Origin: an uncultured bacterium
Lineage (GTDB): Bacteria > Zhuqueibacterota > QNDG01 > DTFT01
Direction: 5' to 3'
DNA length: 64,000 bases
NCBI GenBank assembly: GCA_963736115.1
Contig: CAVTNR010000011.1
Location: forward strand, 1 to 64,000
Shown in pieces: positions 2,532-14,976 of this stretch. The notes under the pieces are model-generated. The model searched no databases and had not been told where the DNA came from. It saw nothing but the letters and a program-made list of their open reading frames with translations. Every line of letters starts with the position of its first letter. Position 1 is the first letter of the stretch. The position numbers and the translations under genes were made by a program.

Positions 2532-3518
2532 ATGACCGCAGGGGACACCCATGCTTCTGAAGGCGGGGCCGCGGCTCGCCCGGAGCCTTTGGAAACTATT
2601 TTGGTGGTCGACGACAAGGCCAACAACCGCCTTCTGCTTCAGACCTACCTTGAATCGGCCGGATACCGCGTCCGTCTGACGGCCAACGGAGAAGAGGCGC
2701 TCCGCTTCATCACGGAGAACGCGCCGTCTCTCGTCCTGCTGGATGTGATGCTGCCGGGAATCAACGGGTATGAGGTGTGCCGGATTCTGAAGCTCTCGAA
2801 ATCCCGCCGCGGCCTTCCCGTGGTCCTGGTCACGGCGCTTCAGGGGGAGGAGGAGCGCGTGAAGGGAATCGAGGCCGGCGCCGACGATTTTATCGGACGC
2901 CCGATTCACCGGCTGGAACTGCTCACTCGCGTTCGGTCACTCCTGCGGATCCGGCGTCTGCACGACGAGTTGGAGCAGAAAATTCTCGAGTTGGAGAAGG
3001 CCAAGATCCAACTGCAGCAGCTGGCTGTGACGGACGGCCTGACAGGTCTCTATAATTATCAGTATTTCAAGCACAAACTGCAGATCGAGGTCGCCCGTTC
3101 GCGGCGTCACGGACTGCCCGTTTCCCTGCTGATGATGGACATTGATTATTTTAAAATGTACAACGATCATTTCGGGCACCCGCTCGGCGACCGGGTTCTG
3201 CGCCGCTTCGGGAATCTGCTGTTCGAGCACGTGCGGCAGATCGACATCCTGTCCCGCTACGGGGGAGAGGAGTTCGCCCTGATTCTGCCAGGCACGCCCA
3301 AGGACGCGTCGATGATTGTGGCTGAAAAGCTGAGAACCCTGATCGAGAAATCCTATTTCCCGCTTTCGGAAAAACTGCCGTTCGGCCGGGTGACCATGAG
3401 CGTGGGAGCGGCCTGTTTTCCGGACGATGCATCAAACGAGGAGGAACTGGTTCGGAAATCCGACGAAGCCCTGTACCGCGCGAAAAAAGAGGGCCGGAAC
3501 CGGTCCGTTTCCGCCTAG
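2532..3518 (+). CDS. Response-regulator diguanylate cyclase (REC-GGDEF)
   Basis: ILVVDD...[10 protein letters not shown] receiver domain, coiled linker, [13 protein letters not shown] (RxxD I-site) and SRYGGEEF. Confidence 0.93.
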
Positions 3519-3519
3519 G

Positions 3520-5658
3520 ATGCATGCAATGCCAGCCGCTCCCGCCAAACGGAAATTGAACCGGTCGACTTTCGTCAAACTCTGGATTCTCCTGTTCACG
3601 GCGTCCGCCCTCCCGGTTGGCGTTTTGAGACTCGCCGGAAACGGATTCGCTTTCGGAGGCCGGAATGTCTCCGCCCGTGATCTGCTGAAATCCAGGGCCG
3701 AGTCCCTCTCGCGCATCGCCGAGGAGGCCATGTTGGCGGACGTCCGGGAGATCTGGATGTCCGATTCCGCCGATCCGGACCGCGAATCCTCTTTCTTCGC
3801 GGACTGGGAGCTCCGGTATCCATCCGTCGTGACGGCCGATTTGTGGCGGACCGACGGCTCCGGCCCCGACCGCTGGATCCATGATGCGCTTGCCGGCCAA
3901 ATCCGGTCCGGTGTCGCGGACGTCGCCTCGCGGAACCGTCTGGACGCTTTCCTCTCGCCGAAACGCGTGTCCTGGACGCTCCGGAGAAAAACGCCGTACC
4001 AGGAAACCGCTTTTCTTCGCATTCCGTTCCGCGGGTCCCTGGCGGGGATTCTGATCCCGTGGGAGTCCCGGAAAAGCAGGTCGATCCTCTGGATACGCTT
4101 CGTTGTCGCCGATCCGTCCGAGGCCGTCCGCTCGCGTCTGGATCCGGGGGAAACGGTTCGCCTGGTGGACGGAGACTCCGCCCTGATCACATGGGAAATG
4201 CCTGCTTCGGGCTCGCGTGGCCACGCCGGTTCGTCTCCGGCGACATGGAGTGCGTCTGCGCCGTTGTCGATTCTTTCCTGGCGAGTCGAGATTCAGCGTC
4301 AAATCGCCGGATCCGTCCCGGCCGGCGGCTCCGCCCGGCCGCTGATTCTCTGGCTTCTGACCTGCCTCCTGATCTCCGGAACAGCCGCGTTCGCGGGCGT
4401 CTGGTGGATCGAACGGCCGTTCGAACGGCTGATGTCCTCCGCGATTGAAATCGGCAGAGGCAATTTCGGGATCCGGATTTCAGACCAGAAGAACCGGTCC
4501 ATGCACCGTCTCGCCAAACTGCTCAATTACATGGCGACGGAAATGGACCATCTTCAGAGGATGAATGTCAGCGCGATCATCAATGAAAAGAACAAAACGG
4601 AGATCATGCTCCGCAACATCGCGGACGGCGTGCTCGTGCTCGATGAAGAAGGTAGAATCGTGCTGATGAACGAGACAGCTTCCCGGTGGCTGCGTCTCAA
4701 CGAATCCGCGGTGCTCGGCCGGCCCTTTCAGGAGTGCATCCGTATCCGTCCCCTGGCGGCGTTGCTTCGCGACGTCCTCAAGGACAAACCCAACGCCTCC
4801 GATGAATTCGCGATCAAAGCCTCCGAAGACCGGCAGACGCTCGTGCTGTCGGCGAATGCGGCCCGCGTCACCAACCGCGACGGACGGAATGTGGGGGCGG
4901 TCACCGTCCTGAGGGACGTGACCAAGGAGAAGGAGGCCGACCGCATCAAAACAGAACTGGTCTCCATGGTCGCGCACGAACTGAAATCGCCCCTGACATC
5001 CATCTACGGATTCACGGAGCTGCTTCTGGATTCGGAAACCAAAAACAAAAAGGCGGCCGAATACGCGCGGGTCATCCAGTCGGAAGTGAGCCGCCTGACC
5101 GATTTTGTCGACAAGTTTCTCAGTCTGTCCAGGCTTGAGTCCGGTAAAATCCGGATCCAGATGGATCCGTTCGACCTCCGATCCGTTGTGGAGAAAAGCG
5201 TGTCCGTGCTTCAGGGCCATGCCGCACGCAAGGATATCCTCATCGCGCTTCAGCTACCCGACTCCCTGCCGCTCACGGCGGGGGATCCATCGCTGATCGA
5301 GCAGGTTTTGGTGAACCTCATCGGCAATGCGATCAAGTACAGTCCCCGTCAGTCCAAGATCGGAATCGAGACGGCGGTCGGCTCTAAAGACGTGTCCATT
5401 CATGTCATCGACAACGGCTACGGCATCCCGAAGGAAGCCCTGCCGAGGATATTCGACAAGTTCTACCGGGTCGCGGAGATGCGCGAAAGTGAAGAAACCG
5501 AAGGCTCGGGTCTGGGACTGGCCCTGGTCAAAGAGATCGTCGAAAAGCACGGCGGGTTCATCAAGGTGAAAAGCAAGCTGGGAGTGGGCTCCGTATTCTC
5601 CTTCTCCCTGCTCCAGGCCGGTATGTTTCTGCGGCCGGGAAGCGGAGAGAACCGGTGA
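3520..5658 (+). CDS. Membrane sensor histidine kinase (TM-HAMP-PAS-HisKA-HATPase)
   Basis: Two hydrophobic segments, HAMP-like region, PAS (IADGVLVLD), SMVAHELKSPLTSI H-box, NLIGNAIKY, DNGYGIP, GSGLGL. Start codon uncertain (3520 or 3529). Confidence 0.9.
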   Translation: MHAMPAAPAKRKLNRSTFVKLWILLFTASALPVGVLRLAGNGFAFGGRNVSARDLLKSRAESLSRIAEEAMLADVREIWMSDSADPDRESSFFADWELRYPSVVTADLWRTDGSGPDRWIHDALAGQIRSGVADVASRNRLDAFLSPKRVSWTLRRKTPYQETAFLRIPFRGSLAGILIPWESRKSRSILWIRFVVADPSEAVRSRLDPGETVRLVDGDSALITWEMPASGSRGHAGSSPATWSASAPLSILSWRVEIQRQIAGSVPAGGSARPLILWLLTCLLISGTAAFAGVWWIERPFERLMSSAIEIGRGNFGIRISDQKNRSMHRLAKLLNYMATEMDHLQRMNVSAIINEKNKTEIMLRNIADGVLVLDEEGRIVLMNETASRWLRLNESAVLGRPFQECIRIRPLAALLRDVLKDKPNASDEFAIKASEDRQTLVLSANAARVTNRDGRNVGAVTVLRDVTKEKEADRIKTELVSMVAHELKSPLTSIYGFTELLLDSETKNKKAAEYARVIQSEVSRLTDFVDKFLSLSRLESGKIRIQMDPFDLRSVVEKSVSVLQGHAARKDILIALQLPDSLPLTAGDPSLIEQVLVNLIGNAIKYSPRQSKIGIETAVGSKDVSIHVIDNGYGIPKEALPRIFDKFYRVAEMRESEETEGSGLGLALVKEIVEKHGGFIKVKSKLGVGSVFSFSLLQAGMFLRPGSGENR

Positions 5659-7577
5659 TGGCGGATCCCCGCAAACGGACGGTCCTGCTCCTCGACCCGG
5701 ACGGCGGATCGGAAACCGTTCTCCGTCGGGCGCTGCAGGATACGGACACGGTCATCCGGCGTGCCCTTTCCGTTGAGGAAGCCGTACGCCTGACCGGAGA
5801 ACTGCGTCCCGAACTGATCGTGGCTGAGTTCGACTCCGATTCCGCAGAAGGCCTTCGACTGTTCCAGATAATCCTCGAGGACCGGGAGTACCGTGACCGG
5901 TTTCCCGTTCCGTTCGTGATGATTTCAGATCCCCTGACTCGCGAGCGGCACGCGGATGAACTGTTTCCACTCGGTCTCATGGGCTGGGTTGTCCGTCCTC
6001 TTGAGCCGGCAACGGTACGGGAGGTTTTCCATAACTGGCTCTGGCTCCATGAAGCTTTCCGGAAAGCCCATCGGCTGAAGCAGGAGGTCCGCAAATCCGA
6101 ATACCGGTACCGGGATCTCCTGGAAAATGCATCCGATTTTATTTTCACGCTGGATTCGGAAGGCCGTTTTCTGTATCTCAACAACCGTTTTAAATCCCTG
6201 ACCGGATTCGAGAAGGAGGAGTGGCTGGGCCGTCCCTTTCCCGATCTCTTCGAGGCAGAAGACCGGGGATCCGCTCTGGAACACTACGAGCAGACTCACC
6301 AGGGAAGGTCCCGGGTTTTCGAGGCGCATGTTCTTCACAAGACCACCGCGCCCAACGTGCTGTCGATCAGTCTGACGCCCATCGTCGAAGTCGCATCCGT
6401 CACGGGAACCATGGGTATCGGACGGGATATCCTCGAACAAAAACGGATGGAGCGGGAGATCCTCGATCTTGAAAACTTCAACGCGAGCATCATCGAAAGC
6501 ATGGAAGCCGGTCTTCTGACCGTTGACCTCGACGGCATCATTACCTCCCTGAACACAGGAGGCCAGAACATACTCGAGCGGAAATCCGAGGAGGTTCTCG
6601 GCCGTCCCATCGGGGAGGTCCTGCCTCCCGGGGAAGCGGAAGCGCTTCTTTCGCCGGGCCCCGTCGACACCGGACTGCCGTCGCGCCGGGAGATGGAGTT
6701 GACCCTCAAGTCGGGCCGCAAGGCCTCTATCGGTTATACCGTGACCAACCGGGTGGACAACCAGAGGCGGAAGATGGGAACCATTGTCTCCTTCCGCGAC
6801 ATTACCCTGATCAAACAAATGCAGAACGAGGTCATTCGGATGGACCGGCTGGCTTCGCTCGGCGTCCTGGCTTCAGGCATCGCGCATGAGATCAAGAATC
6901 CGCTGGCCGGCATCAAGTCGCTGGCCCAGGCCTGTGAGGAGGAATTCGAGGGGGAAGACCCGCGCCGTGAATATTTGGCCCGCATCATCCGGCAGGTCAA
7001 CCGCATGGATGACCTGCTACGGACGTTTTTTGCCTACGCCAAGCCCAAACCGCCGGATCGGAAACCGGTTCCCCTCAGCGACATCGTCCGCGAAGTCGGT
7101 CACCTGATGAACCGTAAAATGGACAAAGCGGGAATCCGCTATTCCGTGGAACTGGCCGACGTCCTCCCAGCCGTCGTCGTGGACGGACCGCAGATCCAGC
7201 AGGTTTTCCTGAACCTGATGCTCAACGCCGTGGATGCCATGCCCGAAGGCGGGAATCTGGCGATCCGGGCGGCCACCGCGGGCCCGGACTTCCGGGGCCT
7301 GATGCGCAGGCGCACACCGGACTCGCATCCGGCTCCTTCGTTGAAAGGAGCGTCCTACGTGGAAATCCGGATCTGCGATTCGGGCACCGGCATCCCGGAG
7401 GACAAGCTGGAAACCATTTTCGACCCATTCTTCACCACCAAGCCCAGCGGCCTCGGCCTCGGGCTGTCCATCGTGTACCGCATCATCGCCGAACACCAGG
7501 GGGACATCCGAGTCAAGAGCCGTCCCGATCAGGGGACGGAATTCAGCATTTATTTACCCACGGGAGATCCTTCATGA
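5655..7577 (+). CDS. Cytoplasmic NtrB/AtoS-type histidine kinase with an N-terminal degenerate receiver and two PAS domains
   Basis: REC-like N-terminus (VLLLDPD...LIVAEF), YRDLLENASDFIFTLD PAS, GIAHEIKNPL H-box, NLMLNAVDAM, DSGTGIP, FDPFFTTK, GLGLGL. Confidence 0.9.
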   Translation: MMADPRKRTVLLLDPDGGSETVLRRALQDTDTVIRRALSVEEAVRLTGELRPELIVAEFDSDSAEGLRLFQIILEDREYRDRFPVPFVMISDPLTRERHADELFPLGLMGWVVRPLEPATVREVFHNWLWLHEAFRKAHRLKQEVRKSEYRYRDLLENASDFIFTLDSEGRFLYLNNRFKSLTGFEKEEWLGRPFPDLFEAEDRGSALEHYEQTHQGRSRVFEAHVLHKTTAPNVLSISLTPIVEVASVTGTMGIGRDILEQKRMEREILDLENFNASIIESMEAGLLTVDLDGIITSLNTGGQNILERKSEEVLGRPIGEVLPPGEAEALLSPGPVDTGLPSRREMELTLKSGRKASIGYTVTNRVDNQRRKMGTIVSFRDITLIKQMQNEVIRMDRLASLGVLASGIAHEIKNPLAGIKSLAQACEEEFEGEDPRREYLARIIRQVNRMDDLLRTFFAYAKPKPPDRKPVPLSDIVREVGHLMNRKMDKAGIRYSVELADVLPAVVVDGPQIQQVFLNLMLNAVDAMPEGGNLAIRAATAGPDFRGLMRRRTPDSHPAPSLKGASYVEIRICDSGTGIPEDKLETIFDPFFTTKPSGLGLGLSIVYRIIAEHQGDIRVKSRPDQGTEFSIYLPTGDPS

Positions 7578-8932
7578 ATTCCGCCAACATACTCGTCATC
7601 GAGGACAACGAAGACCTTTCGTTTACCATATCCAAAGTTCTGCACAAGGAGGGTTTTAAACTGTTCACGGCGAAGTCCGGGGAGGAAGGCCTTCTTCTGT
7701 TCCGGAAGGAAATCGTGGACCTGCTCCTGCTCGACCTGAAGCTCCCGAAGATGAACGGGCTGGAGGTGCTCTCGCGCGTCAAAGAAATGGACCCGGACCT
7801 CGCCGTCATCATGATGACGGCATCCACCGATGTCAAGCCGGCCATCGAGGCCATGAAACGGGGCGCCATCGATTATCTCATGAAGCCGTTCGAGCTGGAT
7901 GAGCTGAAATTGGTCGTCATAAAGGCGCTGGAAATGCACCAGCTCAAGATTGAAGTGGCGCGTCTCCGACGTGACCATGTGAAGGCGAATCCCCACGACA
8001 CGCTGTACGGCGAAAGTCCGAGAATCAAGGAGATCCGCAGGCTGATCCAGATCGTTTCGGAGACTCCCCGGACATCCGTTCTCATACAGGGGGAAAGCGG
8101 CACGGGCAAGGAGCTTGTCTCAAACGCCGTTCACACGGCCAGCAGCCGGGCCGGCAAGCCCTACATCAAGATCAACTGCAGCGCCATTCCGGACAATCTT
8201 CTGGAGAGCGAGCTCTTCGGCCACGAAAAAGGCGCCTTCACGGACGCGAAACTCATGAAGAAGGGGCTTTTTGAACTCGCCAACGGCGGCACGATTTTTC
8301 TCGATGAAATATCCAGCATGAAGCTCGGGCTGCAGCCGAAGATTCTGCGAGTGCTCGAGACGCAGACGTTCCGCCGCATTGGCGGCATCGGCGACATCAA
8401 GATCGATATCCGGGTCATCGCCGCCTCCAACACCGACCTCGGCGAACTGGTGAAGCTCAAGGAATTCCGGGATGACCTTTATTACCGCCTGAAGGTCATG
8501 GAAATCGACCTGCCGCCGCTCCGGGATCGGAAGGAAGACATCATGCTTCTCGCGAAGCTCTTCCTTCAGGAATTCAACAAGGAATTCAACAAGCGGGTCC
8601 AGAAATTCCATGCGAAAACCGAGGAGCTCCTTCTGGCCTACCATTGGCCGGGGAACGTCCGGGAGCTGAAAAACGTCATTGAGCGCGCCGTCATTCTCAC
8701 GCAGGACGACTCTCTTCACCCGGACCACCTTCCCATCGAGCTGAAGGAAGAGGGACGCTCCTCCATGCCGGAAAGAGCCGCCATGGGCAGGATGTCCCTG
8801 GAGGACATGGAAAAAATGCATATTGACCAGGTTCTGCAATCCGTCAAGGGAAACAAGTCCCAGGCGGCGAAAATTCTGAACATATCCAGATCAACGCTCA
8901 GGGAAAAACTGAAGGCCTATCATATCTCATGA
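7574..8932 (+). CDS. Sigma54-dependent transcriptional activator (REC-AAA+-HTH, NtrC/AtoC family)
   Basis: Receiver domain, GESGTGKE Walker A, ESELFGHEKGAFTDA, FLDEI, WPGNVREL and a C-terminal Fis-type HTH (KSQAAKILNISRSTL). Confidence 0.95.
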   Translation: MNSANILVIEDNEDLSFTISKVLHKEGFKLFTAKSGEEGLLLFRKEIVDLLLLDLKLPKMNGLEVLSRVKEMDPDLAVIMMTASTDVKPAIEAMKRGAIDYLMKPFELDELKLVVIKALEMHQLKIEVARLRRDHVKANPHDTLYGESPRIKEIRRLIQIVSETPRTSVLIQGESGTGKELVSNAVHTASSRAGKPYIKINCSAIPDNLLESELFGHEKGAFTDAKLMKKGLFELANGGTIFLDEISSMKLGLQPKILRVLETQTFRRIGGIGDIKIDIRVIAASNTDLGELVKLKEFRDDLYYRLKVMEIDLPPLRDRKEDIMLLAKLFLQEFNKEFNKRVQKFHAKTEELLLAYHWPGNVRELKNVIERAVILTQDDSLHPDHLPIELKEEGRSSMPERAAMGRMSLEDMEKMHIDQVLQSVKGNKSQAAKILNISRSTLREKLKAYHIS

Positions 8933-9055
8933 TGCTCTGATTTCGACCACGCAGTACGAGCGGGCGCCTGCGGAAGCAGGCGTTGTCGTTTTGCTAAACA
9001 ATTGAATATAAAGGAGTAGAGTGCTTTGCGCGAATTCCAGTGGAAAACTGTTTCC

Positions 9056-9070
9056 TGGTATATATTTTGC
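9056..9070 (+). promoter_or_regulatory. Putative sigma54 -24/-12 promoter for the REC-ftsZ pair
   Basis: TGGTATATATTTTGC gives GG-N10-GC spacing with TTGC. It lies in an AT-rich intergenic region 16 nt before the ATG at 9087. Confidence 0.6.
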
Positions 9071-9086
9071 CCGATAAAGTATCAGC

Positions 9087-9518
9087 ATGTCACATAAGTA
9101 CAGGGAAACAGACCCTTTGAAAACTTGGAAAAAAAGAGTATTGATTGTGGACGATGAGGAGGATCTGACCTGGAGCATCGTCCGGGGCTTTTCGAAAGAG
9201 AGGTCCGGCGTCGAAGTACACTGCGCCAGTTCGGGTTCGCATGCATTGGATCTGATGGACCGTCATTCCTACGATCTGCTGGTTACGGACTTGCGGATGC
9301 CCGGTCTGGACGGAAAGGGTCTCGTGCAGCGGGCGCGGTCCATGCACCCCGGACTGAAAATCATCCTGATGACCGCTTTTCCGTCTCCGGATGTCCGGGA
9401 ATTCGCGGAACGCTTCCGCGTCTCGGAAACCGTGGAAAAGCCTTTTGAGATGGGGGAATTCCGGCGACTGATCGGGAGTCACCTGGAGACGGAATCCGTG
9501 TCTTCCGGAACCACCTGA
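9087..9518 (+). CDS. Single-domain response regulator (receiver only)
   Basis: VLIVDDE, LLVTDLRMPG (phospho-Asp), ILMTA, VEKPF; no output domain. Confidence 0.88.
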   Translation: MSHKYRETDPLKTWKKRVLIVDDEEDLTWSIVRGFSKERSGVEVHCASSGSHALDLMDRHSYDLLVTDLRMPGLDGKGLVQRARSMHPGLKIILMTAFPSPDVREFAERFRVSETVEKPFEMGEFRRLIGSHLETESVSSGTT

Positions 9519-9561
9519 CCGAGAGCGCCTGTCATTCATCGCCTTGGGGAGAATCGACTTC

Positions 9562-11148
9562 ATGAAAGACGTTCCTGCATCATCCGCCGCTCCGGACATT
9601 CCGCCGGAACGGATGGATGTCTATCAGACATCCATCCGGGTTCTGGGAGCCGGAGGCGCCGGAAATAACACCATCGACCGGCTCCAGAGACTGGGTATCC
9701 GGAACGTGGACACCATCGCCCTCAATACGGATGCGCAGCAACTGCTCGAGACGCACACCCAACGGCGCATCCTGATCGGAAAGAACATCACGGCCGGGCT
9801 CGGATCCGGCGGCGATCCCCAGATCGGGGAGCGTTCGGCGGAAGAGAACCATGCCGCGATACGCTCCGCGATCGAGGGCGCGGATCTGCTGTTCATCACC
9901 GGCGGCCTCGGTGGCGGTACCGCCACGGGTTCCATCCCGATCATCGGACGGGTGGCCCGGGAACAGGGGACACTGACGATGGCCATCGTCACCATGCCCT
10001 TCTCCGAGGAAGGCATCGTTCGATGGGAAAACGCCCAGATCGGCCTCGAAAAGATTCGCAAGAATGTGGATACCGTGATCGTCCTGCGCAATGACAAGCT
10101 GTACGAACTGTATCCGGACACCACATTGCTCGAAGCCTTCCGTAAGGCGGACGAAATACTCATCCACAGCCTCATCGGATTGTCCGAGCTTGTGCAGAAA
10201 CGGGGACTGATCAATCTCGATTTCGCCGATATCCGGTCGGTTCTCACCGACGGACCCAATGCCGTGGTCGGGCTCGGGGAGAGCCGCTCCGAGAACCGGG
10301 CCGAGGAAGCCGCGCGACGCGCATTCAGCCATCCCATGATGGACTCCGACATTACGGGCGCCCAGAGCGCCATGGTGCACATCACCGGCGACGCGGATCT
10401 GACACTGAAAGAATCCCGGCAGGTCGTTCAGGCGCTCTCCCATAAGCTGGACCCGGGGGCGAAAATCATCTGGGGCGTGACCATCGACAAGTCGGTCAAG
10501 GGGACCCTGAAAGTCCTGCTCATCGTGACCGGTCTTGTGGAAAAAGAGGATGATTTTCCGAAGCGCCTCGATGAGTCGGATACCGTTCCCCGGCAGTCCG
10601 TCGAGACGGAAGGGACAGCGCTGGGCCCGCTTCAACCGATCCGCGACGACGGCAAGAGCATTTTCGACATCAAGGAATCCATCATGGCTTCCGGCGAGGA
10701 GACCACCACGCTGACGAAGCCCAGAAAGGCCGTCGCCCAGTCCTCGCAGATCTTTTACACGATATTTGAAGAAGAGGCGGCCGCGGACCTGAAACGCTTC
10801 GACCGGGCGGTCCATCTTCTTCGGGAGACGCCGGACAGCCGCAAAGCCCTGCTGGATGCCCTTCAATCCTGCAAGATGCTGTTCGCATCAGCCCAGATGT
10901 TCGGATTCGATGAAACCTGCCAACTGCTCGGCGCGGTTCAGGATATTCTCCAGAGCGTCCACGCGAAGGAGATCCAGATGAATCCGAGAATCCTGGATTC
11001 CATCACGCTGGCGATCGAGATGGTCGTGGATCTGATGGAAAACCGCTGCGACGGACGAGGCGAAACCGGGTACATCGTCGACCGGCTGCGCGATCTCCGG
11101 AGCGAGCAGATGGAATCCGCGGCTTCCGCGGACGGAAACAAACCGTGA
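9562..11148 (+). CDS. ftsZ: FtsZ-family GTPase (archaeal FtsZ1-like core) fused to a C-terminal CheA-P1/HPt-like helical domain
   Basis: GAGGAGNNT, NTDAQQL, GLGSGGDP, GLGGGTATG (tubulin signature), PFSEEG, GLINLDFAD (T7 loop), IIWG...IVTG. About 70 aa of linker follow, then IFEEEA...LQSCKMLFASAQMFGF...VQDIL. RBS GGGGAGA precedes ATG 9562. Confidence 0.9.
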   Translation: MKDVPASSAAPDIPPERMDVYQTSIRVLGAGGAGNNTIDRLQRLGIRNVDTIALNTDAQQLLETHTQRRILIGKNITAGLGSGGDPQIGERSAEENHAAIRSAIEGADLLFITGGLGGGTATGSIPIIGRVAREQGTLTMAIVTMPFSEEGIVRWENAQIGLEKIRKNVDTVIVLRNDKLYELYPDTTLLEAFRKADEILIHSLIGLSELVQKRGLINLDFADIRSVLTDGPNAVVGLGESRSENRAEEAARRAFSHPMMDSDITGAQSAMVHITGDADLTLKESRQVVQALSHKLDPGAKIIWGVTIDKSVKGTLKVLLIVTGLVEKEDDFPKRLDESDTVPRQSVETEGTALGPLQPIRDDGKSIFDIKESIMASGEETTTLTKPRKAVAQSSQIFYTIFEEEAAADLKRFDRAVHLLRETPDSRKALLDALQSCKMLFASAQMFGFDETCQLLGAVQDILQSVHAKEIQMNPRILDSITLAIEMVVDLMENRCDGRGETGYIVDRLRDLRSEQMESAASADGNKP

Positions 11149-11165
11149 CCGGCGGATGCATCGCC

Positions 11166-11207
11166 GCCCGTTTCCAGCCGACCGGCAGGGAACGGGCTTT
11201 TTGTTTT
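11166..11207 (+). terminator. Rho-independent terminator after ftsZ
   Basis: GCCCGTTTCC...GGGAACGGGC stem followed by TTTTTGTTTT. Confidence 0.7.
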
Positions 11208-11221
11208 GCGGAGGATCCGGC

Positions 11222-12880
11222 ATGAATCCGTGCGTTCCGCTGTCCGAAAAGCCGGGCCGGGCGGGAAAGGACCTCGGGCCTGCGGTGCGCGTGGCCGGAA
11301 CCGAACAGGTCCGTGCGGCCCATGAAACTTATCTGACCGACGAATCCCGGATGCCTGGCGGATTTGCGGATGAACTGGTGTTCGCCCGCAGTGAAAAACA
11401 GGTCTGTGAATTACTGGCCGGAGCCGGGCGCAGGGGAACCTCGGTGACGGTTTCCGGCGCCAGGACGGGCATTGTCGGCGGTGCGGTTCCGTTCGGAGGG
11501 GCGCTGTTGTCCATGGAATCCTTCAACGGATTTCTCGGCGCCCGCCATGCGGACGGGGAAGAGGACTGGCGGATCCGGGTTGAACCCGGATTGACCCTGG
11601 AAGCGCTGAACCGCATACTCGAAACCGGACTTCCAGCCGGAAACGGCGGATCGGGTTATGACCTTGACCGATTTCCGGAAACACCCCTGTTTCTGGCGGA
11701 ATCCGCTTCCTGGTTCTATCCGCCTGATCCCACGGAGAAAACCGCGCATCTCGGCGGAACCGTGGCGACCAATGCTTCCGGATCGCGATCCCTGAAATAC
11801 GGTCCCACTCGGGAATGGGTGACGGCGCTTCGCGTGGTCCTGCCGGACGGCCGCGCGCTGGAACTTCGAAGGGGCGAATGCATTTCACACGGCGGCTCCG
11901 CACTGCGCATCATGGCCGACGGCCAGGAGCGCATCGTGCATCCGCCCCGGATCCGTGCGGTCCGCGTCAAGTCCACGGCCGGTTACTGGGGCGGAACGCC
12001 CCTGGATTGGATCGATCTTTTCATCGGATCCGAGGGTACGCTCGGGGTCATCACGGAAATAGAACTTCGGCTGGCCCGTAAACCGGAATCCGTGTTCGGC
12101 GGCCTCGCCTTTTTTCATTCCGAGGAACAGGCGCTTTCCTTTGTCCGGCTCGCGTCTTCTCAGGACGGTCCGGGTCCATCGGTGCTCGAATTTTTTGATG
12201 CGGCCGGTATCCGTCTCGCGGCGGGCAGGGAATCCGGAGCGGCAACGTTTCCGGCCTCTTCTTTCCCAGTCGACCCCGAATCTTCCGGTTGCGCGGTTTA
12301 TTTCGAACAGGAATGTGCGGCGGACGGCATGGAGGAGTCGCTGGATGGGTACGGCCGCATGCTGTCCCGGTGCGGCAGTTCGCTGGACGAGGCATGGGGC
12401 GCGATGGACGAGAGGGAATTGCGAAGAATCGCTGATTTCCGCCACGCGCTTCCGGAAGCGATCAATACGATCATTGGCCAGCGGAAGCGGATTTTTCCGG
12501 GAATCCACAAAGTCAGCACGGATTTCGCGGTTCCCGGAGAATCCTTTCATCACCTGTTCCGGTTTTACCGGGAACGCCTGGACCCGACGGGCTTGGAATA
12601 CGTCATTTTCGGGCATGTCGGTGAAAATCATGTTCATCTGAACGTTCTGCCTGGATCCGAGGAGGACCTGACTTCAGCGGTACAGGTCGGCCGGGATCTG
12701 GCAATCGAAGCGGTCCGGCTGGGCGGCACAGTGAGCGCGGAACATGGCATCGGAAAGCTTAAAAAACATCTACTTGCCCTGCAATTCGGACCGGAGGACC
12801 TGGATTCCATGATCCGCGTGAAAAAAGAACTGGATCCGGACTTGATTCTCGGCAGAGGGACACTTTTTGATATCCCCTAA
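11222..12880 (+). CDS. FAD-binding oxidoreductase (GlcD / D-lactate dehydrogenase family)
   Basis: SGARTGIVGGAVP, PPDPTE, GGTVATNASG, FIGSEGTLGVIT, GHVGENHVH and SAEHGIG motifs. Confidence 0.88.
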   Translation: MNPCVPLSEKPGRAGKDLGPAVRVAGTEQVRAAHETYLTDESRMPGGFADELVFARSEKQVCELLAGAGRRGTSVTVSGARTGIVGGAVPFGGALLSMESFNGFLGARHADGEEDWRIRVEPGLTLEALNRILETGLPAGNGGSGYDLDRFPETPLFLAESASWFYPPDPTEKTAHLGGTVATNASGSRSLKYGPTREWVTALRVVLPDGRALELRRGECISHGGSALRIMADGQERIVHPPRIRAVRVKSTAGYWGGTPLDWIDLFIGSEGTLGVITEIELRLARKPESVFGGLAFFHSEEQALSFVRLASSQDGPGPSVLEFFDAAGIRLAAGRESGAATFPASSFPVDPESSGCAVYFEQECAADGMEESLDGYGRMLSRCGSSLDEAWGAMDERELRRIADFRHALPEAINTIIGQRKRIFPGIHKVSTDFAVPGESFHHLFRFYRERLDPTGLEYVIFGHVGENHVHLNVLPGSEEDLTSAVQVGRDLAIEAVRLGGTVSAEHGIGKLKKHLLALQFGPEDLDSMIRVKKELDPDLILGRGTLFDIP

Positions 12881-13059: not shown

Positions 13060-14976
13060 TTGAGTCAAATCACGATCACATTCGAAGGCGGAACCCAAAA
13101 GCAGGTCGAAAAAGGCATTTCCATATTTCAGGCGGTTCAGCAGGCGCTCCCCGAATTGGCTTCTTCCGCAATTGCCGCGGTAGTCAACGGAAAAATTACG
13201 GATTTACAGGATCGAATCGAATCGGACGCGACGGTTCAAGTCGTCTCGGATCGCGATCCTGAAGGCCTGCATGTATTCTGGCACAGCGCCTCCCACGTGA
13301 TGGCCCAGGCGGTCCGCGCACTTTTCCCGGATGCCAAACTGGGCATCGGCCCGTCCATTGAGAACGGATTCTATTACGATTTCCGGATGGACAGGACTCT
13401 GACCGCCGAGGATCTGCCGGCCATCGAAGCGAAGATGAAGGAAATCGTCAAGGCCGATCAGCCCTTCATCCGCGATCGGCTGTCGCCGGGTGAAGCCGAG
13501 GCGTTGTTCGGAAGCCGGGGGGAGGATTTCAAACTCGAGCTGATCCGGGACATCCCCGCCGACAGCCTGACCGTCTACCGCAACGGCGATTTCGTCGACC
13601 TGTGCCGTGGGCCTCATGTTCCGGCCACCGGACGGATCCGGCATTTTAAACTGCTCAGCGTGGCCGGCGCCTACTGGAGGGGCGACGAGCGGAACGCCGT
13701 GATGCAGCGGATTTACGGTATCGCTTTCCGCGATCACGATTCGCTCAAGAGCCATCTGGCCATGCTCGAGGAGGCCCGGAAACGCGATCACCGCAAGCTG
13801 GGAAAAGAGCTGGACCTGTTCAGTTTTCAGCCCGAAGGGCCGGGATTCGCGTTCTGGCACCCGAACGGGATGTCGCTTTACAATTCCGCCATGGAGGCGG
13901 TCCGCGAAATTCTCGTCCGCAAGGGTTACGCAGAGATCAAGACGCCGATCCTGCTCAACGAGTCGCTGTGGCACCGGAGCGGACACTGGGATCATTACAA
14001 GGAGAACATGTACTTCACGAGCATCGACGAACAGCCGTTCGCCGTGAAGCCCATGAACTGCCCGGGCTGTCTGCTCGTCTACCGCAACACGCCGCGCTCC
14101 TACCGCGACCTTCCCGTGAAATTCATGGAGATGGGGCTGGTCCACCGGCACGAAAAATCGGGCGTTCTGCACGGCCTGTTCCGCGTCCGGCAGTTCACCC
14201 AGGACGACGCGCACGTGTTCTGCACTCCGGATCAGCTCGAAGCCGAAATCGGGAAACTGATCGACCTCGTGGCTGAAGTGTATGCGCTTTTCGGATTCCA
14301 CCGCTACCAGATCGAGGTTTCCACACGCCCGTCGAAATCCATCGGGTCCGATGAGATGTGGCGGAACGCCGAGGACGCCCTGACGCACTCGCTTGCCTCC
14401 AAGGGAATCGCGTATACGCTGAACCCCGGCGAGGGCGCCTTTTACGGCCCGAAAATCGACTATCACATCCAGGATTCGCTCGGCCGAACGTGGCAGTGCG
14501 GAACGATTCAGGTGGATTATTCCATGCCCGAACGGTTCGACCTGGAGTATGTCGGAACCGACAACGCAAAACACAGGCCGGTCATGATCCACCGCGCCAT
14601 TTTCGGCTCCATCGAGCGTTTCATCGGGATCCTGATCGAACATTTCGGCGGCGCGTTCCCGCTCTGGCTGGCCCCGGTGCAGTGCGTGCTGATCCCGATT
14701 ACGGACAAGCACCATGAGGCGGCCTCTGCGGCGGCCGACCGGCTCGGCCGGGAGGGCATCCGCGTCCGGGTCGACAGCCGCAACGAGAAGATGGGTTACA
14801 AAATCCGGGAGGCGGAGAAGCTGAAAATACCCGCGATGGCCGTGATCGGAGACCGGGAGGCGGAACAGGGAACCGTATCCGTCCGCCGGCACGGACGCGG
14901 CGATCTCGGCTCCCTGCCGCTCGAGGCATTCGCGGAATCCCTGAAGGACGAAATCGCAAGGAGGGCGAGCCATTAG
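13060..14976 (+). CDS. thrS: Threonine--tRNA ligase
   Basis: TGS domain, HSASHVMA, DLCRGPH, RDHRKLG, KPMNCPG, FYGPKID; TTG start. Confidence 0.97.
   Translation: MSQITITFEGGTQKQVEKGISIFQAVQQALPELASSAIAAVVNGKITDLQDRIESDATVQVVSDRDPEGLHVFWHSASHVMAQAVRALFPDAKLGIGPSIENGFYYDFRMDRTLTAEDLPAIEAKMKEIVKADQPFIRDRLSPGEAEALFGSRGEDFKLELIRDIPADSLTVYRNGDFVDLCRGPHVPATGRIRHFKLLSVAGAYWRGDERNAVMQRIYGIAFRDHDSLKSHLAMLEEARKRDHRKLGKELDLFSFQPEGPGFAFWHPNGMSLYNSAMEAVREILVRKGYAEIKTPILLNESLWHRSGHWDHYKENMYFTSIDEQPFAVKPMNCPGCLLVYRNTPRSYRDLPVKFMEMGLVHRHEKSGVLHGLFRVRQFTQDDAHVFCTPDQLEAEIGKLIDLVAEVYALFGFHRYQIEVSTRPSKSIGSDEMWRNAEDALTHSLASKGIAYTLNPGEGAFYGPKIDYHIQDSLGRTWQCGTIQVDYSMPERFDLEYVGTDNAKHRPVMIHRAIFGSIERFIGILIEHFGGAFPLWLAPVQCVLIPITDKHHEAASAAADRLGREGIRVRVDSRNEKMGYKIREAEKLKIPAMAVIGDREAEQGTVSVRRHGRGDLGSLPLEAFAESLKDEIARRASH

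What the first reader, a model, noticed from the sequence alone, without database searches (positions are those of the whole stretch)
9562..11148. Archaeal-type FtsZ fused to a pseudo-HPt (CheA-P1-like) domain
Seen in sequence: a complete FtsZ GTPase core (9562-~10536) with the T7 loop intact (NLDFAD) and a variant signature, GGGTATG instead of GGGTGTG. A ~70-aa linker follows, then a ~115-aa helical domain (~10750-11100). That domain aligns by eye with CheA P1/HPt: FEEEA...LQSCKMLFASAQMFGF versus IFRAAHSIKGGAGTFGF, with Lys (10873-10875) at the phospho-His position. There is no bacterial C-terminal DIPxFL-type FtsA/SepF-binding peptide, and no ftsA, ftsQ or mur neighbours. From recalled family sequences, the core (GGAGNNTI, ILIGKNIT, GESRSENRAEEA, LDPGAKIIWG) looks more like archaeal FtsZ1 than bacterial FtsZ. 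Inference: this is a non-divisome FtsZ paralog whose polymer displays a non-phosphorylatable docking domain for receiver proteins. I do not know of a described FtsZ-HPt fusion.
Basis: partly seen in the sequence, partly recalled or inferred. Interest (0 to 1): 0.92.

Follow-up and report, generated by a model that had tools for sequence, protein, structure and literature searches.

The report
Second FtsZ carrying a dead phosphotransfer domain
This bacterium has, besides its normal cell-division FtsZ, a second FtsZ that resembles archaeal ones, ends in a CheA-type phosphotransfer domain without its phosphate-accepting histidine, and lies in a signal-controlled operon with a receiver protein, an arrangement found across its phylum and not found in the papers searched.

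Summary
Window 9562-11148 (+) encodes a 528-aa protein with four parts. These are a complete FtsZ core (TIGR00065, 364 bits), a disordered linker, a short conserved motif (SIFDIKESI) and a five-helix CheA-P1-like domain. In that domain Lys438 sits where the phospho-accepting His should be.

It is not an artefact. Ninety protein clusters share the tail.

It is not the division FtsZ. A 410-aa ftsZ lies behind ftsA in the dcw cluster on another contig.

The core scores 345 bits against M. jannaschii FtsZ1 and at most 262 against bacterial FtsZ. The dcw copy shows the reverse. Trees place it among archaeal FtsZ, but an AU test does not force nesting.

Two histidine kinases, an NtrC-type activator, a terminator-like hairpin, a conserved sigma-54 promoter and a single-domain receiver lie directly upstream. 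This order is kept in relatives.

Best reading: a signal-induced, non-divisome FtsZ filament that displays a non-phosphorylatable docking domain, probably for that receiver. Binding itself is untested. I found no description in the searched literature.

The parts
3427..5658 (+). Sensor histidine kinase 1 (HAMP-PAS-HisKA-HATPase_c), first gene of the conserved cluster
   Evidence: Pfam. An orthologue lies in the same position in 14 of 18 related loci.
5655..7577 (+). Histidine kinase 2 (weak N-terminal receiver, two PAS, HisKA, HATPase_c)
   Evidence: Pfam. An orthologue is present in 15 of 18 related loci.
7574..8932 (+). NtrC-type sigma-54 activator (receiver, Sigma54_activat, AAA lid, HTH_8)
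   Evidence: Pfam. It is 64-98% identical in 16 of 18 related loci.
8963..8984 (+). Terminator-like hairpin with a T-rich tail after the activator gene
   Evidence: This is a consensus scan only.
9056..9070 (+). Sigma-54 type -24/-12 element TGGTATATATTTTGC (GG-N10-GC)
   Evidence: It is kept in the activator-receiver spacer of 15 of 16 family loci and lies near the receiver gene in 9 of 13 loci of other classes. rpoN is present in the genome.
9087..9518 (+). Single-domain receiver. The likelier start is TTG 9117, behind AGGGAAA at 9102-9108
   Evidence: Pfam Response_reg E 8.4e-20. In 13 aligned orthologues the DD pair, D58 and K108 are invariant and T86 is kept in at least 90% (numbering from 9117). 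The orthologue lies next to the fusion gene in 5 of 5 genomes checked.
9562..11148 (+). FtsZ-pseudoP1 fusion gene, 528 aa
9634..10536 (+). FtsZ GTPase core plus FtsZ_C (residues 25-325)
   Evidence: AF2 pLDDT is mostly 80-96.
9910..9930 (+). G-box GGGTATG (residues 117-123)
10213..10230 (+). T7 loop NLDFAD (residues 218-223)
10549..10737 (+). Variable, predicted-disordered linker (residues 330-392)
   Evidence: pLDDT 30-45. Poorly conserved columns in A1.
10657..10683 (+). Conserved short linear motif SIFDIKESI (residues 366-374)
   Evidence: D369, I370, K371 and I374 are invariant or nearly so. FDIKE-like motifs recur in distant kin.
10738..11130 (+). CheA-P1-like five-helix domain without the phospho-His (residues 393-523)
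10873..10875 (+). Lys438 at the phospho-acceptor His position
   Evidence: HMM alignment to T. maritima CheA P1. It is K in at least 90% of 24 relatives.
11156..12880 (+). GlcD-like FAD oxidase, 7 nt downstream. A variable member of the neighbourhood
   Evidence: It is present in 9 related loci. It is absent, with thrS following directly, in 4.

Best explanation
The gene encodes a second, non-divisome FtsZ. Its core is a complete, presumably GTP-dependent polymerising FtsZ of archaeal type. A disordered linker of about 60 residues carries a short conserved motif. It then ends in a CheA-P1-like helical bundle that cannot be phosphorylated, because Lys replaces the His.

The gene forms an operon with a single-domain, phosphorylatable receiver. 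A sigma-54 promoter precedes the operon, directly downstream of genes for two histidine kinases and an NtrC-type activator.

Proposed working:
1. A signal sensed by the kinases phosphorylates the activator.
2. The activator switches on the receiver and FtsZ-pseudoP1 genes.
3. The FtsZ core forms filaments.
4. The pseudo-P1 domain is displayed on these filaments the way the C-terminal peptide is on canonical FtsZ. It docks the co-expressed receiver, probably depending on its phosphorylation state. Kinase activity would thereby control filament assembly, bundling or placement.

Shown here: domain make-up, loss of the His, paralogy, conservation, synteny, promoter motif.
Inferred: polymerisation, sigma-54 and NtrC control, receiver docking.
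For: **Core.** It is over the ftsZ equivalog cut-off and has an intact G-box and T7 loop.

**Paralogy.** A canonical ftsZ lies behind ftsA in an mraY-murD-ftsW-murG-murC cluster on contig C14. In the order, 31 of 31 genomes have an FtsZ and 23 of 31 have two or more matches.

**Tail.**
- The PDB profile finds CheA P1 at E 3.4e-10, with K438 opposite the His.
- The AF2 tail model has pLDDT 82.5 and five helices.
- The first nine Foldseek rows are all CheA P1 structures. Examples are 3kyi (TM 0.81 on the target) and 1tqg (TM 0.89, rmsd 1.2).

**Conservation.** Ninety clusters share the tail at 55-100% identity, and 86 of the 90 are 503-540 aa long.

**Synteny.** The receiver lies directly upstream in 16 of 18 loci and the NtrC-type gene in 16 of 18. 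The two exceptions lack the upstream flank.

**Promoter.**
- A GG-N10-GC element is present in 15 of 16 spacers. The 16th has CGG in place of TGG.
- It is also found in other classes of the phylum.
- rpoN is present.
- A terminator-like hairpin separates the two transcription units.

**Receiver.** D58 and K108 are invariant and T86 is kept in at least 90% of 13 orthologues. An invariant DLTWS follows the acidic pair, on or next to helix alpha-1. Placement on alpha-1, and alpha-1 being the face that receivers use against helical-bundle partners, are established knowledge of HK-RR and HPt-RR complexes, not tested here.

**Co-occurrence.** The receiver orthologue (165-198 bits) lies next to the fusion in 5 of 5 fusion-positive genomes. 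In 4 of 5 fusion-negative genomes no receiver scores over 93 bits. The fifth has half of the orthologue at a contig edge.
Against: - No direct evidence of binding, of expression or of polymerisation was obtained.
- Pfam Hpt is under its gathering score (16.4 against 24.6 bits).
- In more distant fusion proteins of the phylum the His position holds S, N, L, A or T rather than K. The Lys is therefore not a universal functional residue.
- In those relatives the receiver is longer (137-254 aa stop-to-stop frames) and lies several genes away. Neighbouring proteins also carry P1-like modules. This fits a protein-protein module among several partners as well as it fits receiver docking.
- The promoter pattern alone is not enriched in the window (7 found, 7.4 expected). 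Its weight rests on conservation of position.
- Four or five of 31 genomes of the order lack the gene, so it is dispensable.
Confidence: 0.6

Rival explanations
1. The pseudo-P1 domain is a self- or hetero-association module. It would bundle or cross-link the FtsZ filaments, or join them to other P1-module proteins. The receiver would act elsewhere, for example on the kinases or the activator.
For: In other classes of the phylum the genes flanking the fusion gene encode proteins with no Pfam family that carry one or two P1-like modules. They have long acidic linkers (X, 529-786 aa; Y, 284-436 aa). An FDIKE-like motif occurs either in the FtsZ linker or in Y, which suggests a shared partner network. 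That helical bundles of the HPt type can dimerise (Spo0B, ChpT) is recalled knowledge.
Against: X and Y have no tblastn match at E up to 1e-3 in the window's genome, which is 87% complete. Yet the tail is as conserved there as the core. The receiver is the one partner gene kept next to the fusion across the order.
Confidence: 0.2
2. The pseudo-P1 domain docks on the catalytic domain of one of the two upstream kinases, as P1 does on P4 in CheA. It would tether or inhibit the kinase, giving feedback from the filament to signalling.
For: Two kinases are conserved in the cluster. P1 domains naturally bind an HATPase_c domain (established knowledge of CheA).
Against: The kinases are HisKA-type with their own phospho-acceptor His helix, and nothing suggests that they need a P1. 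The genome gave no CheA-type match (no Hpt and no CheW).
Confidence: 0.1
3. It is a conditional division FtsZ. Under the inducing signal it would make an alternative or extra division ring, for example for a resting-cell or developmental division, with the tail only tuning this.
For: The FtsZ core is complete. The context implies signal-dependent expression. That developmental use of FtsZ is known in other bacteria is recalled.
Against: There is no FtsA/ZipA-type C-terminal peptide, and no SepF match in the genome (87% complete). The archaeal LGIE-type tail motif is absent. This rival is not exclusive of the best explanation.
Confidence: 0.08
4. The fusion is an assembly or frameshift artefact, or a decaying pseudogene.
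For: None found.
Against: The same architecture occurs in 86 of 90 clusters of full length. It also occurs in 18 loci of species-representative genomes. The tail has 70% mean column identity, and the frame has no stop.
Confidence: 0.01

Closest known systems
Archaeal FtsZ1 (M. jannaschii FtsZ homolog 1, PDB 1fsz/1w58)
   Same: It is the best solved-structure match of the core, at 345 bits over residues 21-327. The core falls in the tree clade that holds all five named archaeal rows.
   Different: The host is a bacterium with its own dcw FtsZ. The archaeal C-terminal LGIE/GID-type peptide is absent (Pende 2021, PMC8178401, passages read). No SepF match in the genome. It carries an extra C-terminal domain.
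CheA P1 (HPt) domain: T. maritima 1tqg/2ld6, Salmonella 1i5n, R. sphaeroides CheA3 P1-CheY6 3kyi
   Same: It has the same five-helix fold (TM 0.74-0.89 on the target). Profile similarity is significant (E 3.4e-10).
   Different: Lys replaces the phospho-accepting His, and the flanking K and G of the HxxKG stretch are also changed. It sits at the C-terminus of an FtsZ, not at the N-terminus of a kinase. The genome gave no CheW and no Hpt match.
Pseudo-HPt proteins of plants (AHP6 type)
   Same: An HPt fold that has lost the His and is thought to act by binding rather than by transfer. This comes from recall; the listing showed only that such plant proteins are discussed.
   Different: Those are free-standing eukaryotic proteins that inhibit a phosphorelay. 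They are not attached to a cytoskeletal polymer.
Extra ftsZ copies outside the dcw cluster in a few bacteria (e.g. Bipolaricaulota; Santana-Molina 2023, PMC9871819, passages read)
   Same: A second ftsZ lies outside dcw in a conserved locus, taken as subfunctionalisation.
   Different: That paper attributes the extra copies to gene duplication. It states that no notable ftsZ transfer between archaea and bacteria was detected. In the passages I searched it mentions no HPt, CheA or KSB1.
CetZ, archaeal non-division tubulin-family cytoskeleton
   Same: A tubulin/FtsZ-family paralogue used for something other than division. It is linked to the placement of motility and chemotaxis proteins (abstract listing).
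   Different: CetZ is a separate family without FtsZ_C in Pfam. No CetZ model matched here, and CetZ carries no signalling-derived domain.

Membership tests
FtsZ (TIGR00065 / PF00091 + PF12327) | Score over the curated cut-off across the GTPase and C-terminal domains | tested here: met
   364 bits against 295.2. Tubulin E 2e-42 and FtsZ_C E 4.5e-28.
FtsZ (TIGR00065 / PF00091 + PF12327) | G-box GGGTGTG and T7 loop NxDxxD | tested here: met
   GGGTATG here, GGGTGTG in the relatives' consensus. NLDFAD is invariant at N, D, F and D.
FtsZ (TIGR00065 / PF00091 + PF12327) | GTP-dependent polymerisation | not testable with these tools
   Needs purified protein.
Divisome FtsZ of bacteria | Position in the dcw cluster behind ftsA | tested here: not met
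   The neighbours are kinases, an activator, a receiver, an oxidase and thrS. The dcw-linked copy is on contig C14.
Divisome FtsZ of bacteria | C-terminal FtsA/ZipA/SepF-binding peptide at the end of the linker | tested here: inconclusive
   No DIPxF-type peptide is seen. A different conserved motif, SIFDIKESI, occupies the corresponding place. Its partner is unknown.
Archaeal FtsZ1 | Groups with archaeal FtsZ1 rather than with bacterial FtsZ | tested here: inconclusive
   345 bits against 262 or less. The bacterial rows form a clade at 100/99. The fusion clade was nested among the archaeal-type rows in all 200 bootstrap trees, but an AU test of archaeal monophyly gave p 0.342. FtsZ2 and CetZ were not sampled.
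Archaeal FtsZ1 | C-terminal GID/LGIE-type SepF-binding peptide, with SepF in the genome | tested here: not met
   The motif is absent. There is no SepF match in the 87%-complete genome.
HPt / CheA P1 (PF01627) | Helical-bundle fold of the P1 type | tested here: met
   AF2 pLDDT is mostly over 90 in the bundle (block means 88-98). The first nine Foldseek rows are CheA P1.
HPt / CheA P1 (PF01627) | Sequence score over Pfam's gathering cut-off | tested here: not met
   16.4 bits against 24.6. The family profile against the PDB does reach E 3.4e-10.
HPt / CheA P1 (PF01627) | Phospho-accepting His on helix B | tested here: not met
   Lys438 lies opposite the His. It is K, R or Q in the family and S, N, L, A or T in distant fusions. 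It is therefore a pseudo-HPt, not a phosphotransfer domain.
Sigma-54-dependent operon | A -24 GG / -12 GC element at the right spacing, an adjacent enhancer-binding protein, and rpoN in the genome | tested here: met
   The transcription start was not tested.
Receiver domain (PF00072), phosphorylatable | Acidic pair, phospho-acceptor Asp, Thr/Ser and Lys | tested here: met
   D12, D13, D58 and K108 are invariant and T86 is kept in at least 90% of 13 orthologues.

The most novel reading that the evidence does not exclude
A bacterial phylum acquired an archaeal FtsZ, appended a disabled CheA P1 domain and placed it under a two-component/sigma-54 switch. The result would be a signal-inducible cytoskeletal filament whose assembly or placement is gated directly by a phospho-receiver binding to the pseudo-P1 domain. 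That would be the first direct wiring of two-component signalling to a tubulin-family polymer, and a clear archaea-to-bacteria ftsZ transfer.
Probability: 0.3. Interest if true: 0.9.

Novelty: new variant of a known kind. Interest (0 to 1): 0.78.

Why it matters
FtsZ paralogues with roles outside division are rare in bacteria, and their regulation is mostly unknown. This one has a recognisable regulatory logic: two kinases, an NtrC-type activator, a sigma-54 promoter, a receiver and a docking-type domain. That logic makes its function directly testable with purified proteins.

It also bears on FtsZ evolution. A recent survey reported no notable ftsZ transfer between archaea and bacteria (PMC9871819, passage read). 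This paralogue sits with archaeal FtsZ in likeness and in trees.

Finally, it shows a CheA P1 domain reused without its histidine in a genome that gave no chemotaxis match. This is an example of a signalling domain turned into a structural or docking module.

Tried and rejected
**Complex prediction.** I sent the receiver (alignment A3) with the pseudo-P1 domain (A2, residues 30-169). The verdict was 'no answer', score 0.00, and the controls were not folded. It counts neither for nor against binding.

**Sequencing runs.** No RNA holder was listed. All DNA holders have small shares (0.13 or less), so I laid no reads. This is no evidence on expression or habitat.

**Free-standing tail.** A search with the tail profile among proteins of 86-298 aa gave 12 hits. 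All look like fragments of the same family: five carry FtsZ_C and the rest come from contigs of 0.7-6.8 kb. Two were named 'CheA' by JGI. Longer forms were not searched with the profile.

**Pfam on the tail alone.** Hpt is the best hit but under its cut-off.

**SepF-binding idea.** I considered that SIFDIKESI is the archaeal SepF-binding peptide. I rejected it because archaeal-type rows end in LGIE(F/I)L-like motifs and no SepF was found.

**Neighbours in distant kin.** Pfam gave no family for the flanking X and Y proteins, apart from a weak Hpt hit in one Y.

**Promoter pattern.** Enrichment of the pattern in the window alone is not significant (7 found, 7.4 expected).

**ESM Atlas on the tail.** 29 of 30 hits fall in Hpt-domain clusters (score 0.94). 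This is a lead that agrees with the rest, not independent proof.

**Literature.** Searches found no paper on an FtsZ-HPt fusion or on FtsZ in KSB1. Supplements were not available, so the extended trees of PMC9871819 could still contain these sequences unlabelled.
Full report
**The gene and its parts**

The frame from ATG 9562 (a TTG at 9544 is the alternative) to the stop at 11148 is open and gives 528 residues. A purine-rich GGGGAGA at 9546-9552 precedes the ATG.

Pfam finds the Tubulin/FtsZ GTPase domain (residues 25-184, E 2e-42) and FtsZ_C (234-325, E 4.5e-28). The NCBIfam ftsZ equivalog gives 364 bits against a cut-off of 295.2.

The signature reads GGGTATG (residues 117-123). In 24 aligned relatives the consensus is GGGTGTG, so the Ala is a local variant. 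The T7 loop NLDFAD (218-223) is invariant at N, D, F and D.

An AlphaFold model of the whole protein, built with an alignment of 24, shows three regions:
- a well-folded core (pLDDT mostly 80-96);
- a stretch without confident structure (residues 330-392, pLDDT 30-45) holding one short helix at 368-376;
- a five-helix bundle at 393-523 (block means 77-94, mostly about 90).

**The tail is a CheA P1 domain without its histidine**

With the single sequence, the only NCBIfam match besides ftsZ is to positions 8-129 of a CheA model (E 6.7e-6). Pfam Hpt is the best Pfam hit for the tail but stays under its cut-off (16.4 against 24.6 bits).

A profile of 14 tails (A2) finds the P1 domain of T. maritima CheA among solved structures (2ld6 E 3.4e-10; 1tqg 9.3e-10). 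In the printed alignment the family's Q-A/S-C-K-L-L lies opposite A-F-R-A-L-H-T-L-K-G. Lys438 therefore takes the place of the His. That this His is the phospho-acceptor is recalled knowledge. The Lys and Gly that follow the His in CheA are also replaced.

The AlphaFold model of the tail (mean pLDDT 82.5, over 90 for 108 of 169 residues) was searched against the PDB with Foldseek. The first nine rows are CheA P1 structures. They include R. sphaeroides CheA3 P1 bound to CheY6 (3kyi, TM 0.81 on the target), Salmonella P1 (1i5n) and T. maritima P1 (1tqg, TM 0.89, rmsd 1.2). General HPt proteins come far lower.

A language-model look-alike search put 29 of 30 hits in Hpt-domain clusters. I treat that as a lead only.

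**It is a conserved family, not an artefact**

A search on the tail region alone returned 90 protein clusters at E up to 0.001, out of 526 candidates. Details:
- 86 of the 90 are 503-540 aa long. The other four are 346-384 aa, from contigs of 1.4-1.8 kb.
- All 90 carry FtsZ_C.
- Tail identity to the query is 55-100%.
- Three carry a precomputed Pfam Hpt hit.

I aligned 24 of the 90, chosen to span the list. The tail is as conserved as the core. Invariant positions include Q435, C437, F447-G-F-D-E451 and a DGxGE(T/S)G stretch with D497, G498, G500, E501 and G503.

**It is a paralogue**

The window's own genome (3.34 Mb, 31 contigs, 87% complete) holds a second ftsZ on contig C14, scoring 429 bits. 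It is 410 aa long and lies behind ftsA, downstream of mraY, murD, ftsW, murG and murC.

Across the order, 31 of 31 genomes have an FtsZ match and 23 of 31 have two or more. The pattern is one open frame of about 400-415 aa over 406 bits and one of about 500-580 aa at 350-398 bits.

**Likeness to archaeal FtsZ**

Against solved structures the core scores 345 bits with M. jannaschii FtsZ homolog 1. It scores 290 with a chain I could not name (9v7v) and at most 262 with the remaining chains. From memory those remaining chains are bacterial FtsZ; the listing gives no organisms.

The dcw copy does the reverse. Its best score is 368 bits, with 2vam, which I recall as B. subtilis FtsZ. M. jannaschii FtsZ1 gives 299 bits, near the bottom of its list.

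A search of 1.84 billion cluster representatives with the core gave 22,332 hits. I used the best 150. Trees of these, plus eight family members and the dcw copy, gave the following.
- **FastTree** splits the rows into a 103-row clade with the dcw copy and a 51-row clade (support 98) with the fusion proteins.
- **Names in the 51-row clade.** I looked up 23 rows and five clusters carry names. All five are archaeal: two Thermoplasmatota, Lokiarchaeota/Promethearchaeota (one member is labelled as a bacterium), Aenigmarchaeota and Methanobrevibacter.
- **IQ-TREE** (LG+G4) on 75 rows gives the bacterial rows as a clade at 100/99 and all fusion proteins as a clade at 98/98. The archaeal-type rows were never monophyletic in 200 bootstrap trees, meaning the fusion clade was nested among them each time.
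- **AU test.** It does not reject a tree with the archaeal-type rows held together (lnL difference 12.4, p 0.342).

Caveats:
- The 'archaeal-type' label was set after seeing the first tree.
- Only five of its 31 rows are named.
- FtsZ2 and CetZ were not sampled.
- No mixture model was run.

The core is therefore of archaeal type by likeness and by tree position. Transfer from within Archaea is favoured but not established. Santana-Molina et al. [quoted passage not shown]

**Wider relatives**

The ten representatives nearest to the family (P0094-P0102 and P0104) are 47-53% identical in the core and 442-889 aa long. They form the sister group in the trees.
- Nine of the ten match the tail profile at E 3.7e-5 to 3.2e-15. 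P0097 does not.
- In the seven alignments that were printed, the position of the His holds S, N, L, A or T, never His.

In the phylum, 86 of 167 species-representative genomes match the tail profile at E up to 1e-5. This tally includes the unpublished genome G162.
- Inside the order, 26 of 31 genomes match at E 1e-62 or better.
- Outside the order, 60 of 136 match more weakly.

I fetched 20 of the weaker places, picked across families and not at random.
- Sixteen are FtsZ-plus-P1-like fusions in one frame.
- Four are ordinary CheA-like frames of about 700 aa with the match at the N-terminus.

The phylum's name rests on one related record and one source name that say 'candidate division KSB1'.

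**Gene context**

Upstream on the same strand lie the following:
- a HAMP-PAS histidine kinase (3427-5658);
- a second PAS kinase with a weak N-terminal receiver (5655-7577);
- an NtrC-type sigma-54 activator (7574-8932);
- a single-domain receiver (9087-9518).

In the 18 related loci of species-representative genomes, tblastn with the window's proteins gave these counts.

| Gene | Loci with it | Note |
|---|---|---|
| Receiver, directly upstream | 16 of 18 | The other two have no upstream flank |
| Activator | 16 of 18 | Same two exceptions |
| Kinase 2 | 15 of 18 | |
| Kinase 1 | 14 of 18 | |
| thrS, downstream | 11 of 18 | |
| GlcD-like oxidase | 9 of 18 | In 4 loci thrS follows directly instead |

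In 16 fusion loci from other classes, a receiver gene lies on the same strand within 8 kb in 13. A strong NtrC-type match (350 bits or more) is present in 11.

**A sigma-54 promoter**

A terminator-like hairpin with a T-rich tail follows the activator gene (8963-8984). At 9056-9070 lies TGGTATATATTTTGC, which is GG-N10-GC at the spacing of sigma-54 promoters.

The loose pattern alone is not enriched in the window (7 found, 7.4 expected). Its position, however, is conserved.
- **Family loci.** A match occurs in the activator-receiver spacer of 15 of 16 family loci, amid otherwise diverged sequence. The 16th has CGG for TGG.
- **Other classes.** In 13 loci, a stricter pattern hits the FtsZ strand once in 11 loci, twice in one and not at all in one.
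  - In nine loci the hit lies 211 nt or less upstream of the receiver frame, or just inside it.
  - In two it lies between the receiver and the next gene.
  - In one it lies about 1 kb upstream.

rpoN is present in the genome (425 bits).

With a start about 12 nt after the GC, the ATG at 9087 would leave no room for a ribosome site. The in-frame TTG at 9117, behind AGGGAAA, fits better. Relatives' alignments mostly start about there.

**The receiver**

Thirteen orthologues keep the acidic pair, the phospho-acceptor Asp (D58) and the Lys without exception. T86 is kept in at least 90%. A stretch just after the acidic pair, D-L-T-W-S, is invariant. From established knowledge of HK-RR and HPt-RR complexes, this region belongs to the face that receivers use against helical-bundle partners.

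In five fusion-positive genomes the best match to the receiver profile (165-198 bits) lies next to the fusion gene. The next best match is 97 bits or less.

In the five genomes of the order without a tail match, four have nothing over 93 bits. Their completeness is 78, 80, 85 and 94%. The fifth has the first half of the orthologue (104 bits over 62 positions) at the very end of a contig, so its 'absence' is probably an assembly break.

The two genes thus come and go together, and the pair is dispensable.

**What else is absent**

The genome gave no match to SepF, to Hpt or to CheW (87% complete). The P1-like domain therefore does not serve a detected resident chemotaxis kinase. The usual archaeal FtsZ anchor was not found either.

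**The short motif**

SIFDIKESI (residues 366-374) is the only conserved island in the linker. It stands where the C-terminal peptide of an ordinary FtsZ would be.

Archaeal-type rows end in LGIE(F/I)L-like peptides, which it does not match (Pende 2021, PMC8178401, passages read).

An F-D/N-[ILV]-[KR]-[ED] pattern occurs 13 times in 186,901 residues of all stop-to-stop frames of the 20 distant loci. Seven of these occurrences lie in five fusion-protein linkers and two 'Y' proteins. The two Y proteins that carry the motif stand next to fusion proteins that lack it. Its partner is unknown.

**Reading**

The safest statement is that this is a second, non-divisome, archaeal-type FtsZ with a pseudo-HPt tail, expressed from a sigma-54 promoter together with a receiver.

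The step from there to 'the tail docks the receiver' is inference from domain ancestry, operon structure and co-occurrence. The one computational test of binding gave no answer.

Two points keep a rival alive: the extra P1-module proteins around the gene in distant relatives, and the variable residue at the His position. In that rival the domain is a general association module.

**Literature**

Eight answered full-text searches listed nothing on an FtsZ-HPt or FtsZ-CheA-P1 fusion, nor on FtsZ in KSB1. I read passages only of PMC9871819 and PMC8178401. Everything else I saw as search listings. Supplementary files could not be opened.

Noticed in passing
L023:8979-10565(-), L024:9769-11508(-), L025:4448-6775(+), L026:3056-5203(-), L031:4835-6520(+), L041:8126-10483(-): In other classes of the phylum, the gene just upstream of the FtsZ-pseudoP1 gene encodes a 529-786 aa protein with no Pfam family. 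It has a shared N-terminal region of about 160 aa, long acidic linkers and one or two weak P1-like modules. There was no tblastn match at E up to 1e-3 in the window's genome.
   Followed up: partly
L025:8741-9592(+), L041:5411-6301(-), L023:5999-7219(-), L033:6597-7904(-): A 284-436 aa protein downstream of the fusion gene in distant kin also starts with a P1-like module (one has Pfam Hpt at E 3e-4). In two cases it carries the FDIKE motif that their FtsZ lacks.
   Followed up: partly
window 13060-14976 (+): Threonyl-tRNA synthetase follows the cluster in 11 of 18 related loci. The literature notes that archaeal ftsZ1 sits among protein-synthesis genes. This is probably coincidence and was not examined.
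   Followed up: no
window 11156-12880 (+): A GlcD-like FAD oxidase starts 7 nt after the FtsZ stop, with no terminator-like site between them. It is missing in 4 related loci, so it is probably a passenger in the transcription unit.
   Followed up: partly
proteins P0092 and P0093 (826 and 744 aa), and P0091 (840 aa): These are tandem double-FtsZ proteins with two full cores in one chain. P0092 and P0093 fall in the archaeal-type clade. P0091 is from the green alga Closterium and falls in the bacterial/plastid clade.
   Followed up: no
proteins P0279 and P0286: Fragments of this FtsZ tail are annotated by one source as 'chemotaxis protein histidine kinase CheA'. Automatic pipelines thus already pick up the P1 likeness but mislabel it.
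   Followed up: no
own genome G000 (whole): There are no matches to CheW, Hpt or SepF in the 87%-complete genome, while rpoN and many NtrC-type receivers are present. Related genomes show 27-58 receiver matches each.
   Followed up: partly
G021:C30:2-187 (-): One genome scored as lacking the fusion has the first half of the partner receiver at a contig end, just after an NtrC-type gene. Its absence call is therefore probably an assembly break.
   Followed up: partly
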